Part shown: piece by piece, positions 20,258-29,837 of the stretch
Numbering within the stretch: the first letter of the stretch is position 1
Layout: every line of letters begins with the position of its first letter
Assembly (NCBI GenBank): GCA_052168235.1
Contig: JBQLZK010000038.1
Location: 1 to 46,717 of the forward strand
Source of the DNA: Thainema sp.
Lineage (GTDB): Bacteria > Cyanobacteriota > Cyanobacteriia > Phormidesmidales > Phormidesmidaceae
Length of the DNA stretch: 46,717 bases
Direction of reading: 5' to 3'
Made by a program: the position numbers and the translations under genes
The notes under the pieces: generated by a model
What the model saw: only the letters and a program-made list of their open reading frames with translations
Database searches by the model: none
Told to the model about the DNA's origin: nothing

Positions 20258-20463
20258 CCTGCGTGCAAGTTTTTAGAGCATTGCGCGTTCTCAGTTACTT
20301 GGGGGACTCCGCTGGTGAGTTCTTACACACTCTTTCAAGGATGGCTACTTCTAAGCCCACCTCCCAGGTTCTTCGCACTCCCCGTTTACAAGCGCCCACT
20401 GCATGGCAGCGTCACGTTTCCTCTCGTACTCGTATGTAGGCTCCACAGTTTAGGGCACGCAGG
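20258..20463 (-). ncRNA. Y-RNA-like unit U1 carrying 23S sarcin-ricin loop and H42-H44 GTPase-associated-centre mimics
   Basis: Terminal stem CCUGCGUGC/GCACGCAGG; AGUACGAGAGGA at 20430-20419; CUGG-GAGGUGGGCUUAGAAGUAGCCAUCCUUGAAAGAGUGUGUAAGAACUCA-CCAG at 20367-20312. Confidence 0.85.
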
Positions 20464-22680: not shown

Positions 22681-24150
<1,470 letters not shown>

Positions 24151-24457: not shown

Positions 24458-24604
24458 CACTTCGTGCAAGTCGAAAAAGCTGTTGTTTCATACACAGGAT
24501 TCGTAGCTTGCTTCCGCGAAGCGGTACCTATGACTGATCGATCCAAAATCGATTGCTCTACCACTGAGCCAGTATGTAAGCTTTTGGGGTTAGGGCACGA
24601 AGTG
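24458..24604 (-). ncRNA. Y-RNA-like unit U3 with embedded tRNA-like cloverleaf (anticodon UUG), T-loop interrupted
   Basis: Stem CACUUCGUGC/GCACGAAGUG; D arm UGGCUCAGUGGUAGAGC; anticodon arm AUCGA-UUUUGGA-UCGAU; T arm AUAGGU[22-nt insert]CGAAUCCUGU. Confidence 0.8.
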
Positions 24605-24608
24605 GGAA

Positions 24609-25340
24609 TTAATTAATTTGATTCAGTTTTTCTTGAATTATTTTGATTTCGCGCTTGTTGCACTGTCGCTTATGGGCAGCATAGAGTTGATTACTAGAAT
24701 GTTTAGATTCTGGTGTAACCGTAGCTCGATGTAGTACATCAAACACAATTTCAGTTGTTGGTACATCTTGATAGGTAATCAAGTACCAAATATCATCAAT
24801 TTTGCGATACTGATGATATGCATCTAGATTCAAACAATCCAACTGCCGATTTGGCTTGGAAGTTGAATCTACAAAAGATGTTGGATCAATATCCTTTACA
24901 TCACAGAGAATACCTGTTTCAGAATGAACATAGAGCTGTAATTGATAACTCCGTGTTAGCCGATATCCTCCATCTGATTTCCGATAAGGAATACCATCAA
25001 TTAGTTCAACATGTCGCTCAACGTAATGCCACACATGGCTCAGGATATGCTGTCCCGATAATGTACTGGTGTCTAGCTGCTGACATAGTTTGCTGTAGAC
25101 ATCGTTCCACGGTTGTCCAACCTGCGATCGCAAATATCGACGTAGGGGAGCAAGATGATCCGAGAAATACTTCGACTTATTTCTAGGTTTAATCAAATAA
25201 GGTCGGAGTAAACCATCTTCGCTTGCTTCTTCGGTTAGTTTATGTAATTGTTTCTTAAAGCCTTTCACTTTTCTCAGGCTTATTCGCATCCCATATCGAG
25301 GACGCTCAATCACAATTTCACTTAAACGATGTTCGCTCAT
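24609..25340 (-). CDS. Basic hypothetical protein (243 aa) within the RNA array
   Basis: MSEHRLSEIVIERPR...DHLAPLRRYLRSQVGQPWNDVYS...LYVH..TGIL; start at 25340 because the longer ORF runs into RNA U4. Confidence 0.8.
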   Translation of the reverse strand: MSEHRLSEIVIERPRYGMRISLRKVKGFKKQLHKLTEEASEDGLLRPYLIKPRNKSKYFSDHLAPLRRYLRSQVGQPWNDVYSKLCQQLDTSTLSGQHILSHVWHYVERHVELIDGIPYRKSDGGYRLTRSYQLQLYVHSETGILCDVKDIDPTSFVDSTSKPNRQLDCLNLDAYHQYRKIDDIWYLITYQDVPTTEIVFDVLHRATVTPESKHSSNQLYAAHKRQCNKREIKIIQEKLNQIN

Positions 25341-25427
25341 GGTTTGAAGTTTCCAACCTACAGACTGGTTTCCCAGTAGTGTGCAAGCTTTGCAAGTCAG
25401 AGTACGGAAATGATTAGTGATAAACGA

Positions 25428-25609
25428 TTTCATGCAAGTCAGCAAAAGCGATTGACAGCTTACGGTCGCTCTTACCAACAAAGTTGGCAGCGGGCACGTA
25501 TGCTAGATCTGCGAGAGACCTAGAATCACACTTCGCTGGTTCGATCGCTCGAACTTCGCTACCTTAGGACCGTTATTCGTGTGTATGCTTCTGCGGTCGG
25601 GGCACGAAA
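25428..25609 (-). ncRNA. Y-RNA-like unit U4 carrying a circularly permuted 23S domain IV (H67-H71) mimic
   Basis: Stem UUUCGUGC/GCAUGAAA; AUAACGGUCCUAAGGUAGCGAA at 25576-25555; UGCCCGCUGCC...GGUAAGAGCGACCGUAA at 25496-25460. Confidence 0.85.
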
Positions 25610-26280: not shown

Positions 26281-26400
26281 GTCGTGCAAGTTGAAAAAGC
26301 TGTTGATTCATACACAGGACTTGAACCTGCAATCGACTGTTCTAGAGACAGTTGCCCTACCATTAGGCGAGTATGTAAGCTTTTTCGATCAGGGCACGAC
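26281..26400 (-). ncRNA. Y-RNA-like unit U5 with embedded tRNA-like cloverleaf (anticodon CUA)
   Basis: Stem GUCGUGC/GCACGAC and AAAAAGCU/AGCUUUUU; D arm GCCU-AAUGGU-AGGGC; ACUGU-CUCUAGA-ACAGU; GCAGG-UUCAAGU-CCUGU; acceptor CAUAC/GUAUG continues into the scaffold with no CCA. Confidence 0.85.
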
Positions 26401-26879: not shown

Positions 26880-27341
26880 ATGGCAGACGAACTCAGGACA
26901 TTCAAGATTGATTCTGAGCAGTGGCAGGCGTTCGAAGAGAAGGCAACTGCTAACGGCACTACTGCATCAGAGCTGCTAGAGAGCTATGTACAGCAGTACA
27001 TAAGCGATGATCCAGATAGTAAGTCAGATAGGGTTGATCAGCGCATCAATGCCATTCTGGAACAGCGTTTGGAAGGCTTTGGCGCTCGCTTGTCACAGGT
27101 CGAACAACGCCTAAATGATGATGCAGCTCATCCAAGACAACACATCGGTGAAGGTCTGGGCAATATAGACAAGCATTTGGATCAGCATTTAGGTGATATA
27201 GATGAACACCTGGTCGCCTATCTCGATAATCCAAACGAAACAGAAAAGAAATCTCACCTGCCAAGACAGGCTGTAGAGATTCTAAAAGATCGCCAAGGCG
27301 AGCAGCGACCATCTCAACGCCAACGAGATAGTAACCGTTGA
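26880..27341 (+). CDS. Ribbon-helix-helix (CopG/Arc-like) protein with coiled-coil C-terminus
   Basis: LRTFKID strand, SEQWQAFEEKATANG helix, TASELLESYVQQYI helix. Confidence 0.7.
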   Translation: MADELRTFKIDSEQWQAFEEKATANGTTASELLESYVQQYISDDPDSKSDRVDQRINAILEQRLEGFGARLSQVEQRLNDDAAHPRQHIGEGLGNIDKHLDQHLGDIDEHLVAYLDNPNETEKKSHLPRQAVEILKDRQGEQRPSQRQRDSNR

Positions 27342-27523: not shown

Positions 27524-27553
27524 TTGACGCTATGTAGTACAAGAATGTAGTAT
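27524..27553 (+). promoter_or_regulatory. Promoter of the DIP1984-ncRNA-rtcB unit overlapped by two TGTAGTA(T/C) boxes
   Basis: -35 TTGACG 27524-27529, 18-nt spacer, -10 TAGTAT 27548-27553; TGTAGTAC at 27533 and TGTAGTAT at 27546. Confidence 0.75.
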
Positions 27554-27583
27554 AAACTCATCCGTAGAGAAGCGGTAAAGAAA

Positions 27584-28042
27584 ATGAAGCTAGCAGAAGC
27601 CCTGATTGTGCGGGCAGATTGTCAAAAGCGGATTGCTCAACTTCAGCAGCGCCTCATGCGGAGCGCCAAAGTGCAAGAAGGCGAGCAAGCGCCCGAAAAC
27701 CCACAGGAACTGCTGGCTGAGCTAGATGCAGCAATTGTTGAACTGACTCAACTCATCCAGCAAATTAATAAAACCAACGCTATTACCTCCTTGCAGGATC
27801 AGACTCTGTCTGAAGCCCTCGCCCAGCGGGACACCCTGCAAACGAAGCGCAATATTTACAGTCGCTTAATTGAAGCAGCAGCGATTCAGCCAACTCGCTA
27901 TAGTCAATCTGAAGTCCGCTTTGTCAGCACCGTCAACATCGCCGAACTTCAGCGCCAAGTGGATACACTGGCTCGCGACTATCGCGTTCTGGATTCTGCG
28001 ATTCAGGAGATCAACTGGCAAGTTGATTTACTCGATAATTAA
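27584..28042 (+). CDS. DIP1984-family coiled-coil protein
   Basis: MKLAEAL..RAD.QKRI.QL..R......VQEG..P.E.P..L...IN.TN...RYS.SE....S......LD..IQ..NW..DL. Confidence 0.88.
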   Translation: MKLAEALIVRADCQKRIAQLQQRLMRSAKVQEGEQAPENPQELLAELDAAIVELTQLIQQINKTNAITSLQDQTLSEALAQRDTLQTKRNIYSRLIEAAAIQPTRYSQSEVRFVSTVNIAELQRQVDTLARDYRVLDSAIQEINWQVDLLDN

Positions 28043-28574
28043 CGGAAACTGTATCGCCTCATACTAACCACATCCGGCTCTCCTCGCTCTATGGGCTACT
28101 GTTTATACATAAGTCTCCTAGACTTCGTTTCGACATTGAGATCCCCCCTAGCCCCCCTTAAAAAGGGGGGAATTGGCTCAAAGTTCCCCCTTTTTAAGGG
28201 GGATTTAGGGGGATCAGTCCGGGGTTTATAAAGACTATTCAGAAGTATATAAGCAGTAGCCCTATGGGCGAGGGGCTGGGGGTGAGAGCAACAGCAGGTA
28301 GCTCATTCATCACGAAGCGAACACAACCCGCCAACGGGGTTCAGTTGGAACTTACCAATCTAGAAAATTGGTCTTTGGTTGCACCGGGGCAGTGCGGTGG
28401 GTTCGATTCCCCTTACAACTGATGCCCAGCATTGTTACAGGCGTACTGTGCATTGTTATCGCGTACTACCACGTGTTGATCGAGATGAATGAGTGAGGGT
28501 GGGTTCGGGGTTTACGCTGTTGATCCGGTGAGCATCAACTCAAAATATTAGGTGGGGGCAGGTTGAGCCGTTAA
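28039..28574 (+). ncRNA. Candidate large structured RNA between the DIP1984 gene and rtcB with a tRNA-like subdomain
   Basis: Long-range pairs TTAACGG/CCGTTAA, CTCATTCATC/GATGAATGAG and TCAGTTG/CAACTGA; T-loop GGGTTCGATTCCC; anticodon-like ACCAAT-CTAGAAA-ATTGGT. Confidence 0.6.
28078..28288. repeat. Nested cyanobacterial palindromic repeats inserted in the DIP1984-rtcB spacer
   Basis: Inner ATCCCCCCTAGCCCCCCTTAAAAAGGGGGGA...TCCCCCTTTTTAAGGGGGATTTAGGGGGAT inside GGGCTACTG/CAGTAGCCC and CCTCGC/GCGAGG arms. Confidence 0.75.
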
Positions 28575-28655
28575 ATAATTGGTTTAGATCACAATTGATC
28601 AACGAAACCTGCTTCTACAGAAGGCACATCTTTCAATGGTTCAAGGAGAATCAAC

Positions 28656-29837
28656 ATGTCCTATCAACAACTCAAAATCTCTACACCAGCGCCTGTGTTC
28701 TCCTGGGCCAATCACGACCTGGGACACGCCGAAATCAGCATGGCGAAAAACGTTGCGTCCCTTCCCTTCGTGTTTAAGCATGTGGCGCTGATGCCCGATG
28801 TGCATCTGGGTAAAGGTGCGCTAGTTGGCTCCGTCATTGCTACCAAAGACGCCATTATTCCGGCAGCAGTCGGCGTAGACATCGGCTGCGGCATGTGCGC
28901 CATTCAAACGCCGTTTCAGGCCGACCAGCTTGACGGCAAGCTGAAGAAAATCCGCTCGGATATTGAAGCGGCGATTCCGACGGGCTTTGACCAGAATAAG
29001 GAGTCCGATAAGCAAGTCGATAACTGGCAGGGCTGGCAGCAGTTCAAAGAGCTGCATTCCGGCGTGCAGCACCTAGCGGGCAAAGCCCAAAAGCAAATGG
29101 GTTCGCTGGGTGGCGGCAACCACTTCATTGAGGTGTGTCTGGATACCAACGATCAGGTGTGGCTGATGCTGCATTCTGGTTCGCGCAATATCGGCAACAT
29201 GCTGGCTCAGAACCACATCAAGACGGCCAAAGAAGTGGCGAAGCTGGCCGAAATGAAGCTACCTGATCCCGATCTGTCCTACTTCGTAGCCGGAACGCCG
29301 GAGTTTGCCGCTTACTGGCGCGATTTGCAGTGGGCGCAGGACTATGCTCGGTTCAACCGTGAGGTGATGATGACTCGCTTCAAGCGAATTGTCGAAAAAC
29401 ACCTGGCAGGCGGCAAGCCAATCAAGCCACTGCTGTCGGTAAACTGCCACCACAACTACGCCGAGCAGGAAACTCACTTTGGCGAAGCGGTGTATGTCAC
29501 CCGCAAGGGAGCCGTGCGCGCTCAAACCAATGACTACGGGATTATTCCCGGTTCAATGGGCACCAAGTCCTACATTGTCAAGGGCAAGGGCCATGCCGAT
29601 AGCTACTGCTCATGCAGCCACGGTGCTGGCCGCACGATGTCCCGTAACCAAGCTAAGAAGCGCTTTTCACTGGATGATCTACTCCAGCAAACCGAAGGCG
29701 TGGAATGTCGTAAGGACAAGGGTGTCTTGGATGAAATTCCAGGTGCCTACAAGCCAATCGATGAGGTGATGGCTAGCCAGTCTGACCTGGTTGAGATCGT
29801 GGCAACCCTAAAGCAGGTCGTCTGCGTGAAAGGCTAG
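28656..29837 (+). CDS. rtcB: RNA-splicing/repair ligase RtcB
   Basis: MPDVH.G, VGVDIGCG, GSLGGGNHF.E, LHSGSR, NCHHNY, RKGA, IPGSMG, HGAGR, DEIP.AYK, KG. Confidence 0.98.
   Translation: MSYQQLKISTPAPVFSWANHDLGHAEISMAKNVASLPFVFKHVALMPDVHLGKGALVGSVIATKDAIIPAAVGVDIGCGMCAIQTPFQADQLDGKLKKIRSDIEAAIPTGFDQNKESDKQVDNWQGWQQFKELHSGVQHLAGKAQKQMGSLGGGNHFIEVCLDTNDQVWLMLHSGSRNIGNMLAQNHIKTAKEVAKLAEMKLPDPDLSYFVAGTPEFAAYWRDLQWAQDYARFNREVMMTRFKRIVEKHLAGGKPIKPLLSVNCHHNYAEQETHFGEAVYVTRKGAVRAQTNDYGIIPGSMGTKSYIVKGKGHADSYCSCSHGAGRTMSRNQAKKRFSLDDLLQQTEGVECRKDKGVLDEIPGAYKPIDEVMASQSDLVEIVATLKQVVCVKG

What the first reader, a model, noticed from the sequence alone, without database searches (positions are those of the whole stretch)
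28039..28574. Large structured RNA between the DIP1984 gene and rtcB with a D-armless tRNA-Ser-like domain
Seen: after removing nested repeats (28078-28288), about 320 nt remain, closed by TTAACGG(28039)/CCGTTAA(28574) and CTCATTCATC(28302)/GATGAATGAG(28493). Inside, TCAGTTG/CAACTGA (28341-28422) encloses an anticodon-like arm with loop CU-AGA-AA, a long variable-arm-like hairpin TGCAC-CGGGGCA-GTGCG and a T-loop GGGTTCGATTCCC, with no D arm. A tandem motif GCATTGTTA-N2/3-GCGTACT occurs twice (28429-28467), and AACCCGCC could pair with GGTGGGTT (28498) as a pseudoknot. It lacks the U1-U5 scaffold, so it is a separate RNA class, possibly the partner of the DIP1984 protein or an RtcB substrate (inference).
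Basis: partly seen in the sequence, partly recalled or inferred. Interest (0 to 1): 0.7.

Follow-up and report, generated by a model that had tools for sequence, protein, structure and literature searches.

The report
New folded RNA with partner protein
A roughly 230-base knotted RNA that is in no RNA catalogue sits directly behind a small protein gene of unknown function in bacteria of many phyla, and the two probably form an undescribed RNA-protein particle used when protein synthesis is under stress.

Summary
A real, conserved RNA is here, but shorter than proposed: 28289-28522. The 7-bp outer closure is chance, with repeats on both sides. The RNA follows DIP1984/DUF6847 in 70 of 73 gene loci; 94 of 99 RNAs found first have the gene upstream. 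The core is a bulged-G helix, ACNACC, and eight adenines about 7 nt apart (122 of 184; 1.1% in shuffles). A T-arm, a UGG linker and an anticodon-like arm of unfixed anticodon are optional, so 'tRNA-Ser' is wrong. Twelve near-invariant Gs close the ends in a G-quadruplex-like pattern (inferred). Metatranscriptome contigs hint at very high abundance (one study). No Rfam family or paper found. Best reading: a DIP1984 oligomer wraps the eight motifs in a stable particle with a tRNA-like decoy or sensor, acting in translation stress; binding and function are not shown. This scan found the same family before on other DNA (e1-5621310, e1-6833788, e1-7760260).

The parts
27533..27554 (+). Two 9-base direct repeats (TGTAGTACA, 4-base spacer, TGTAGTATA) upstream of DIP1984, resembling the repeats that control the Anabaena tRNA operon and rtcB under translation stress
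   Evidence: 3 such pairs in the genome by my pattern; both 9-mers fit the motif in PMC8421152 section 15 but the spacer is 4, not 2-3; similar repeats upstream in L011 and L032
27584..28042 (+). DIP1984 / DUF6847 gene, 152 aa, helical; proposed protein partner
   Evidence: PF20935 E 1e-52, NF038048 E 2e-55; 3KDQ is the only clear solved relative
28079..28288 (.). Nested multi-copy inverted repeats inserted between gene and RNA; not part of the RNA
   Evidence: absent in relatives
28289..28522 (+). The conserved RNA, single copy in the genome; ends joined by P1 (28289-28295 with 28516-28522)
   Evidence: P1 of 6 or more pairs in 137 of 175 RNAs vs 25% for mismatched partners
28297..28300 (+). 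5' GGUA, opposite the 3' G tracts; gained or lost together with them
   Evidence: both present 177, both absent 5, discordant 2 of 184
28301..28324 (+). 5' strand of P2 (28301-28315 with 28480-28494), bulged-G loop AGCG/GA (C28318-G28478, invariant G28319) and P3 (28320-28324 with 28473-28477): the core helix
   Evidence: 15 of 18 pairs change on both sides, about 95% paired; kept in minimal copies L221, L225, L255, L256
28327..28348 (+). Pseudoknot 1 (H-type): CCC 28327-28329 with GGG in 28336-28339; CCAAC 28331-28335 with GUUGG 28344-28348
   Evidence: 88-89% paired, 6 of 8 pairs change on both sides; found in 159 of 184
28355..28371 (+). Optional anticodon-like arm, 5 bp with loop CU-AGA-AA; middle triplet not conserved
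   Evidence: extra hairpin in 64 of 159, 25 with a 7-base loop, mostly CU..AA
28376..28396 (+). UGG linker (28376-28378), then a hairpin (28380-28384 with 28392-28396) whose G-rich loop pairs with UGCCC 28423-28427 (pseudoknot 2)
   Evidence: pseudoknot 2: 90% paired, 4 of 4 pairs change on both sides; hairpin plus 4 or more loop pairs in 178 of 184
28399..28411 (+). Optional T-arm with UUCGAUU loop
   Evidence: 138 of 184; YGG linker in 114 of 138 with it and 8 of 46 without
28412..28470 (+). Single-stranded array of eight adenine motifs about 7 nt apart (A28415, 28422, 28431, 28439, 28445, 28452, 28458, 28465), ending in ACUACC; proposed protein-binding track
   Evidence: 8-unit chain in 122 of 184 vs 1.1% of shuffles. 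The script traced six units in the window; A28422 and A28415 were read by eye
28495..28510 (+). GA-GGG-U-GGG-UUC-GGGG: three G tracts with free loops; with the 5' GG they give 12 Gs, a candidate three-tier G-quadruplex
   Evidence: each tract G 97-100% in 179 RNAs, loop bases variable; tracts redistributed to the 5' side in L222; folding not shown
28552..28622 (.). Separate dispersed repeat that holds the CCGTTAA arm; not part of the RNA
   Evidence: about 10 copies in the genome
28656..29837 (+). rtcB RNA ligase gene, same strand; a frequent but not fixed neighbour
   Evidence: PF01139; 8 of 73 loci

Best explanation
The DIP1984 gene and the RNA are a two-part module. They are transcribed together (here probably with rtcB, from a promoter opened by translation stress); the RNA is cut out and accumulates as a stable, closed molecule, its ends sealed by P1 and a G-tract knot. 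DIP1984 dimers assemble on it, each protomer reading one of the eight adenine motifs, with the bulged-G helix and ACNACC as anchor. The particle displays a tRNA-like surface (T-loop plus UGG as an elbow, an anticodon-like loop of any triplet) that serves as a decoy or sensor for tRNA-directed enzymes such as anticodon nucleases, beside RNA-repair enzymes. SHOWN: conservation, linkage both ways, covarying helices and pseudoknots, periodic motifs. INFERRED: co-transcription, processing, abundance, protein binding, 8:1 stoichiometry, G-quadruplex, decoy or sensor role. My odds: real structured RNA 0.97; binds DIP1984 0.8; abundant free-standing RNA 0.75; G-quadruplex 0.5; decoy or sensor role 0.35.
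For: Linkage 70 of 73 gene-first and 94 of 99 RNA-first; in 160 genomes scanned with the RNA model, hits of 35 bits or more fall in exactly the 10 genomes that have the gene (two of the 10 were in the model). Covariation 0.394 vs 0.179, 38 of 45 pairs change on both sides. Eight-unit array 122 of 184, kept in shortened copies on plasmids. HutP is a precedent for an oligomer reading short motifs with 4-base spacers (PMC2425495, passages). Four copies of the protein: score 0.67, best control 0.00; mark reached by 20 of 30 solved pairs and 1 of 23 single chains; runs agree in at least 84% of contacts, pLDDT at least 83; the interface is a symmetric dimer and may be recalled from 3KDQ. In run X2, contigs of 52-57 nt confined to the RNA have depth 17,818-25,000 against 145-152 for contigs over DIP1984 and rtcB; X1 and X3 show the same step. 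A tRNA array, RtcB, another RNA ligase or a TROVE-like gene lies in 23 of 73 loci; in L012-L016 the module sits inside tRNA arrays. Stress-type promoter repeats.
Against: No binding or function was measured. 50 of 73 loci show none of the RNA-repair or tRNA neighbours in the fetched flank. T-arm and anticodon-like arm are missing in 46 of 184 and most RNAs respectively, so tRNA mimicry cannot be the core function; the T-arm/YGG link rests on only 4 independent pairs on supported branches (sign test p 0.25). The complex model shows a dimer, not an eight-unit ring. The depth data are contigs from one study of a relative about 95% alike, summed over organisms, without strand, ends or a silent control; the tool warns that they cannot rank parts of a gene; run X6 of a second study, from a more distant relative, shows no step. 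The promoter spacer is one base longer than the published motif.
Confidence: 0.5

Rival explanations
1. A guarded-effector or type III toxin-antitoxin-like module: DIP1984 is harmful to its own cell when free, the RNA holds it inactive, and cleavage of the tRNA-like loops or loss of the element releases it.
For: Asymmetry: all 73 full genes have an RNA by profile or by eye, while two intact RNAs have only the last ten or so codons of the gene (L098, L160). The one gene with a deleted RNA (L055) shares a genome bin with an intact copy (L044). Patchy distribution (10 of 301, 16 of 301, 2 of 221, 5 of 301 genomes), 370 plasmid records, toxin-antitoxin neighbours in L223.
Against: No nuclease or known toxin fold; no PADLOC match better than E 0.018; RNA is downstream and single, not an upstream tandem array; placement inside stress-induced tRNA operons fits a helper role.
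Confidence: 0.2
2. A cis-acting element: DIP1984 binds the array in its own transcript, HutP- or TRAP-like, to control termination, stability or read-through into the next gene.
For: Always directly behind the gene on the same strand; periodic motifs as in the HutP target; rtcB or an RNA ligase follows in some loci.
Against: Next gene is not fixed: of 134 RNAs with enough flank, 26 have only an opposite-strand ORF next and 28 none by my crude ORF test; annotated L221, L222, L225 have convergent neighbours; ends are paired; depth step suggests a free RNA far above the mRNA.
Confidence: 0.1
3. A new Y RNA that tethers a Ro60/TROVE protein.
For: T-arm; a GNCGA-like bulge (76 of 184); TROVE-like VWA gene in the window (weak match to TROVE structures, E 0.018) and in 6 plus 3 of 73 loci.
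Against: GNCGAAN0-1G in 9 of 184; PF05731 found in 3 of 15 genomes that carry the module; no Rfam Y or YrlA hit; arm order differs from YrlA.
Confidence: 0.05
4. One reading: a D-armless tRNA-Ser-like RNA that is a dedicated RtcB substrate.
For: rtcB is next door here and in 8 of 73 loci; anticodon-like loops could be cut and re-joined.
Against: Acceptor-like stem not conserved; AGA in 1 of 25 seven-base loops; 65 of 73 loci lack rtcB nearby.
Confidence: 0.05
5. The particle is a scaffold or small-molecule sensor unrelated to tRNA: the G-tract knot or the bulged-G core binds a nucleotide or ion and the tRNA-like arms only stabilise the RNA.
For: tRNA-like arms are optional, while core, array and (in 177 of 184) the G module are fixed.
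Against: The G module is itself lost in five copies that keep the gene; no metabolic gene context.
Confidence: 0.1

Closest known systems
DIP1984 family / DUF6847 (NF038048, PF20935; PDB 3KDQ)
   Same: The protein is a plain member; model matches 3KDQ at Z 16.4, rmsd 1.5, 150 aligned.
   Different: No function or RNA partner was found in print. Some plasmid records call it 'septicolysin'.
Bacterial Y RNAs (YrlA, Yrn1) with Rsr
   Same: Paired ends, T-arm, association with RNA-repair loci.
   Different: Twice as long, two pseudoknots, motif array, G tracts; linked to DIP1984, not Rsr; Ro-binding motif mostly absent.
HutP and the hut terminator (and TRAP, recalled)
   Same: Short motifs at 7-base period suited to an oligomer (XAG with 4-base spacers, PMC2425495 passages).
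   Different: Unrelated fold; the RNA lies behind the protein's own gene, is closed and pseudoknotted, with no terminator switch seen.
tmRNA tRNA-like domain
   Same: T-loop with unpaired GG in place of a D stem (tmRNA feature recalled); 13-base match to the tmRNA T-arm at 10.9 bits.
   Different: No acceptor stem, CCA end or tag frame.
Type III toxin-antitoxin (ToxIN, recalled)
   Same: One small protein gene with a pseudoknotted RNA, mobile and patchy.
   Different: Single downstream RNA, no nuclease fold.
OLE, raiA/ModT, GOLLD, ROOL RNAs
   Same: Conserved, structured bacterial RNAs of unclear function, some with partner proteins or in tRNA arrays (search listings; GOLLD context recalled).
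   Different: No Rfam match to any; different size and partner.

Membership tests
DIP1984 / DUF6847 protein family | Profile score above curated cut-off | tested here: met
   186.9 bits vs 70; 177.8 vs 27
Any Rfam 15 family | Match at gathering score | tested here: not met
   none over the RNA in the window or in six other loci; only weak chance hits at E up to 10
tRNA (Ser) | 7-bp acceptor stem with 3' CCA | tested here: not met
   67% paired, no covariation; not called by ARAGORN
tRNA (Ser) | Conserved Ser anticodon | tested here: not met
   AGA in 1 of 25 seven-base loops
tRNA-like elbow | T-loop contacted by a GG | tested here: inconclusive
   114 of 138 vs 8 of 46 but only 4 independent pairs, p 0.25
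Bacterial Y RNA | GNCGAAN0-1G near the 5' end (PMC4201824) | tested here: not met
   9 of 184
Bacterial Y RNA | Ro60 ortholog within 4 kb on the same strand | tested here: not met
   Ro60-like in 3 and VWA/TROVE-like in 6 of 73 loci; opposite strand in the window; PF05731 in 3 of 15 genomes
Bacterial Y RNA | Bound by Rsr | not testable with these tools
   needs pull-down
tmRNA | Acceptor stem, tag reading frame | tested here: not met
Type III toxin-antitoxin | Upstream tandem RNA repeats | tested here: not met
   single downstream RNA in all loci read
Type III toxin-antitoxin | Endoribonuclease toxin fold | tested here: inconclusive
   no such fold listed; only 3KDQ stands out
Type III toxin-antitoxin | Protein toxic without the RNA | not testable with these tools
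   needs expression test
HutP/TRAP-type attenuation | Periodic short motifs | tested here: met
   8 units at 6-8 nt in 122 of 184
HutP/TRAP-type attenuation | Leader position before a fixed regulated gene | tested here: not met
RNA G-quadruplex | Four G tracts with variable loops and no covarying C partner | tested here: met
   2+3+3+4 Gs at 97-100% for the 3' tracts; alternative pairings show no covariation
RNA G-quadruplex | Potassium-dependent fold | not testable with these tools
   ViennaRNA's contiguous G4 option predicted none, but it cannot join tracts 200 nt apart

The most novel reading that the evidence does not exclude
A widespread, previously undescribed bacterial ribonucleoprotein: a very abundant RNA sealed by a natural three-tier G-quadruplex, wound round eight DIP1984 protomers, presents a tRNA elbow and an anticodon-like bait loop; cleavage of the bait by toxin or phage nucleases switches the protein, and RNA ligases reset it, so the particle senses tRNA damage.
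Probability: 0.15. Interest if true: 0.93.

Novelty: categorically new. Interest (0 to 1): 0.8.

Why it matters
Conserved structured bacterial RNAs of 200 nt or more with a dedicated protein are rare, and this one comes with a partner whose crystal structure (3KDQ) has lacked a function since 2009. It occurs in cyanobacteria, Chloroflexota, Bacillota, Acidobacteriota, Pseudomonadota and Bacteroidota and on hundreds of plasmid records, so it gives the DUF6847 family, sometimes labelled 'septicolysin', a testable role. It may hold a conserved natural RNA G-quadruplex (thought to be depleted in bacteria; recalled, paper not retrieved) and a modular tRNA mimic linked to the tRNA-array and RNA-repair stress response. 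Binding, stoichiometry and structure are directly testable with one small protein and one transcript.

Tried and rejected
Rfam at gathering and E-value thresholds: nothing over the RNA. Single-sequence folding was uninformative. Viral contigs: no pattern match and no protein relative; 5 phage records match the protein, not followed up. GGUAG with CUACC: GGU/ACC fits in 50-52 of 52 but never covaries, one pair is broken in 18 of 52, and ACUACC is kept where GGUA is lost; not excluded as a short contact. CUACC with GGUGG: no covariation. D. radiodurans has the gene (control line); its Rsr-linked RNAs a, b and d were considered, but the figure text of PMC4201824 supplement 1 (garbled) gives about 143, 143 and 95 nt with no G-tract end; the Deinococcus locus itself could not be fetched, so this stays open. 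Fold searches gave only generic helical matches beyond 3KDQ; PADLOC and PHROGs nothing firm. Run X6 and the low cover at 28480-28533 say nothing firm about ends. Weak model hits of 19-24 bits in G014, G333, G362 and a second site in G380 were treated as fragments and not examined. 29 loci with profile hits failed my core parser and were left out of the 184 (duplicates, fragments and divergent copies such as L234, L236-L239). Literature searches found no description; subscription papers and the supplementary motif tables of large RNA-discovery surveys were not searched and could hold it as an unnamed candidate.

Full report
Setting. The window is part of a cyanobacterial genome (relatives). Around the finding lie a NADAR gene, a VWA protein with a weak TROVE likeness, a small tRNA array, an Arc-like repressor candidate, DIP1984/DUF6847 (27584-28042) and rtcB (28656-29837). 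Rfam has nothing between the two genes.

Check of the observation. The quoted letters are all present, but the limits are wrong. 28079-28288 is a nest of multi-copy repeats and 28552-28622 another repeat of about ten copies. The proposed outer closure joins the DIP1984 stop codon to that second repeat and is found in 1 of 184 RNAs, the window's own. The nearest genome (L011, protein 98% identical) and the strains lack the insertion. What is conserved is 28289-28522, single copy in the genome.

Linkage. Gene first: of 80 loci examined, 7 were dropped for a missing gene end or short flank; 70 of 73 have the RNA by profile and the other three show divergent copies by eye. RNA first: a 3' pattern scan of metagenomes stopped at 120 rows; 115 are true RNAs, 99 have their 5' end and 120 nt upstream, and 94 of these follow the gene; two misses keep only the last codons and three have 151 nt or less upstream. 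In 80 cyanobacterial-phylum and 80 Bacillota genomes, covariance-model hits of 35 bits or more occur in exactly the 4 and 6 genomes that have the gene (G315 and G327 were in the model). The gene is patchy: over cut-off in 10 of 301, 16 of 301, 2 of 221 and 5 of 301 genomes of four phyla (each including its centre) and in 370 plasmid records, 341 of them Acinetobacter. Of five plasmid regions fetched, all five carry a recognisable RNA, three of them shortened or rearranged.

Structure. On 52 sequences, a 45-pair model (P2, P3, pseudoknot 1, anticodon-like arm, G-loop hairpin, pseudoknot 2, T-arm) is 87.6% paired against 73.4% shuffled, 38 pairs change on both sides, covariation 0.394 against 0.179, 0 of 500 shuffles, and slid controls give 33-41%. 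The model was drawn from these sequences and kin share changes, so the numbers lean towards it; RNAalifold found P2, P3 and the pseudoknot 2 pairs unprompted. P1 joins the ends in 137 of 175 RNAs. RNAs are 164-225 nt between the G modules.

Core and options. All 184 parsed RNAs have, by construction of the parser, P3 with the bulged G and ACC. The strand before ACNACC carries adenines at about 7-nt period; a chain of eight is found in 122 of 184 against 1.1% of shuffles. The T-arm is in 138 of 184; an unpaired YGG before the G-loop hairpin is in 114 of those and in 8 of the 46 without, as expected if it stands in for the D-loop GG, but only 4 independent pairs lie on supported branches (p 0.25). 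An extra hairpin sits at the anticodon position in 64 of 159; 25 have 7-base loops, mostly CU-NNN-AA with many triplets and AGA once. So there is modular tRNA mimicry, with no acceptor and no amino-acid identity.

G tracts. The 3' end reads Y-GA-GGG-N-GGG-NNN-GGGG with each tract G at 97-100% and free loop bases; the last tract is GGGG in 166 of 178 and G-N-GGG in 8. With the 5' GG this makes 12 Gs. The 5' and 3' modules are both present in 177, both absent in 5 and discordant in 2 of 184 (my 5' pattern is loose). An Enterococcus copy has GGG-U-GGG on the 5' side and GG-U-GGG on the 3' side. No covarying C partner was found. This is the pattern of a G-quadruplex between P1 and P2; it is an inference.

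Expression. Three metatranscriptome runs of one study hold a relative about 95% alike. In X2, contigs of 52-57 nt within 28310-28462 have depth 17,818-25,000, against 151.5 and 145.1 for contigs over DIP1984 and rtcB; summed bins in X1 and X3 reach 118,000 and 364,000 against 64-320; adapter ends cluster at 28302-28309 and 28473. These are contigs, without strand or a silent control, and the tool warns against ranking parts by depth; X6 of another study shows no step. I take it as a hint of a very abundant free RNA.

Protein. The model has pLDDT 93.4 and matches only 3KDQ clearly (Z 16.4; next 9.1). Invariant residues include R23, Q31, N62, T64, N65, E110, R134, Q141, N144. Four copies score 0.67 against a best control of 0.00 (mark reached by 20 of 30 solved pairs, 1 of 23 single chains; agreement at least 84%, pLDDT at least 83); the interface is a symmetric dimer and may be remembered from 3KDQ. 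Four dimers would match eight motifs; that is not shown.

Context. Of 73 genome loci, 13 have three or more tRNAs, 8 RtcB, 4 another RNA ligase, 6 the VWA protein, 3 a Ro60-like gene; 23 have at least one and 50 none. In L012 and L014-L015 a tRNA gene begins right at the RNA's 3' end, which would release it during tRNA processing (inference). The promoter has two 9-mers that fit the repeats controlling the Anabaena tRNA operon and rtcB under translation stress (PMC8421152, passages and sections 15 and 22 read; repressor TrcR in PMC10272220, passages read), with a spacer one base longer.

Mechanism and rivals. Most likely DIP1984 assembles on the eight motifs of a processed, end-sealed RNA, and the particle acts in the translation-stress response as a tRNA-like decoy or sensor (0.5 for particle plus stress role; 0.35 for the decoy or sensor step). 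A guarded-effector reading (0.2) is favoured by the asymmetry that genes are not seen without RNA while RNAs can outlive the gene. A cis element (0.1), a ligand-sensing scaffold (0.1), a Y RNA (0.05) and a dedicated RtcB substrate (0.05) fit less well.

Known systems and novelty. It is not a tRNA, tmRNA or Y RNA by the features tested (Y RNA criteria from PMC4201824: passages, section 9, supplement 1). It works most like HutP in its 7-base motif period (PMC2425495, passages) and like Y RNA in its tRNA mimicry and neighbourhood. Nine full-text searches found no description (listings only unless stated); survey supplements were not searched. This scan reported the family three times on other DNA and a phage relative once; those notes are not independent support. 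Verdict: real, categorically new RNA-protein module of unproven function; interest 0.8.

Noticed in passing
window 26305-26377 (-): tRNA gene with a CUA (amber) anticodon, loop CU-CUA-GA; the same gene in L011 has CCU (Arg), differing at three loop bases. Possible amber-reading tRNA or a decaying gene.
   Followed up: partly
window 24485-24578 (-): tRNA-Gln(UUG) called at 94 nt, against 73 nt in L011; may carry an insertion.
   Followed up: no
window 20312-20367 (-): Isolated 56-nt match to 23S rRNA positions 1093-1148 of the Rfam model, upstream of the NADAR gene; a stray rRNA-like domain near RNA-repair genes.
   Followed up: no
window 22681-24114 (-): 477-aa VWA protein with weak likeness to TROVE structures 9L5Y/9KOP (E 0.018) and phrog_850 RNA-binding protein; recurs near the module in 6 of 73 loci.
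   Followed up: partly
window 26880-27341 (+): 153-aa protein with an Arc-like repressor N-terminus (E 0.0027); candidate TrcR-like regulator of the repeats at 27533; not compared with TrcR itself.
   Followed up: partly
window 24609-25481 (-): Protein of no Pfam family that recurs beside tRNA arrays and the module in 5 of 73 loci.
   Followed up: no
L221 1201-1880; L225: The Acinetobacter plasmid gene that some records name 'septicolysin' is a DIP1984 homolog followed by a shortened copy of the RNA that lacks both G modules.
   Followed up: partly
L229/L248 and L230/L247: Two Bacillota genomes carry tandem DIP1984 paralogs 2 kb apart, each with its own RNA; the second RNA is shorter and lacks the 3' G tracts.
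   Followed up: partly
L055 2964-3100: RNA with an internal deletion from the T-stem GGG to the G tracts, behind an intact gene; an intact module lies in the same genome bin (L044).
   Followed up: partly
control line: Deinococcus radiodurans has a DIP1984 gene over the cut-off; a tractable host in which to look for the RNA.
   Followed up: no
ESM Atlas: A 97-member, 88% viral cluster of 157-aa proteins without Pfam family scores 0.92 to DIP1984; may be the phage relative of note e1-7888683.
   Followed up: no
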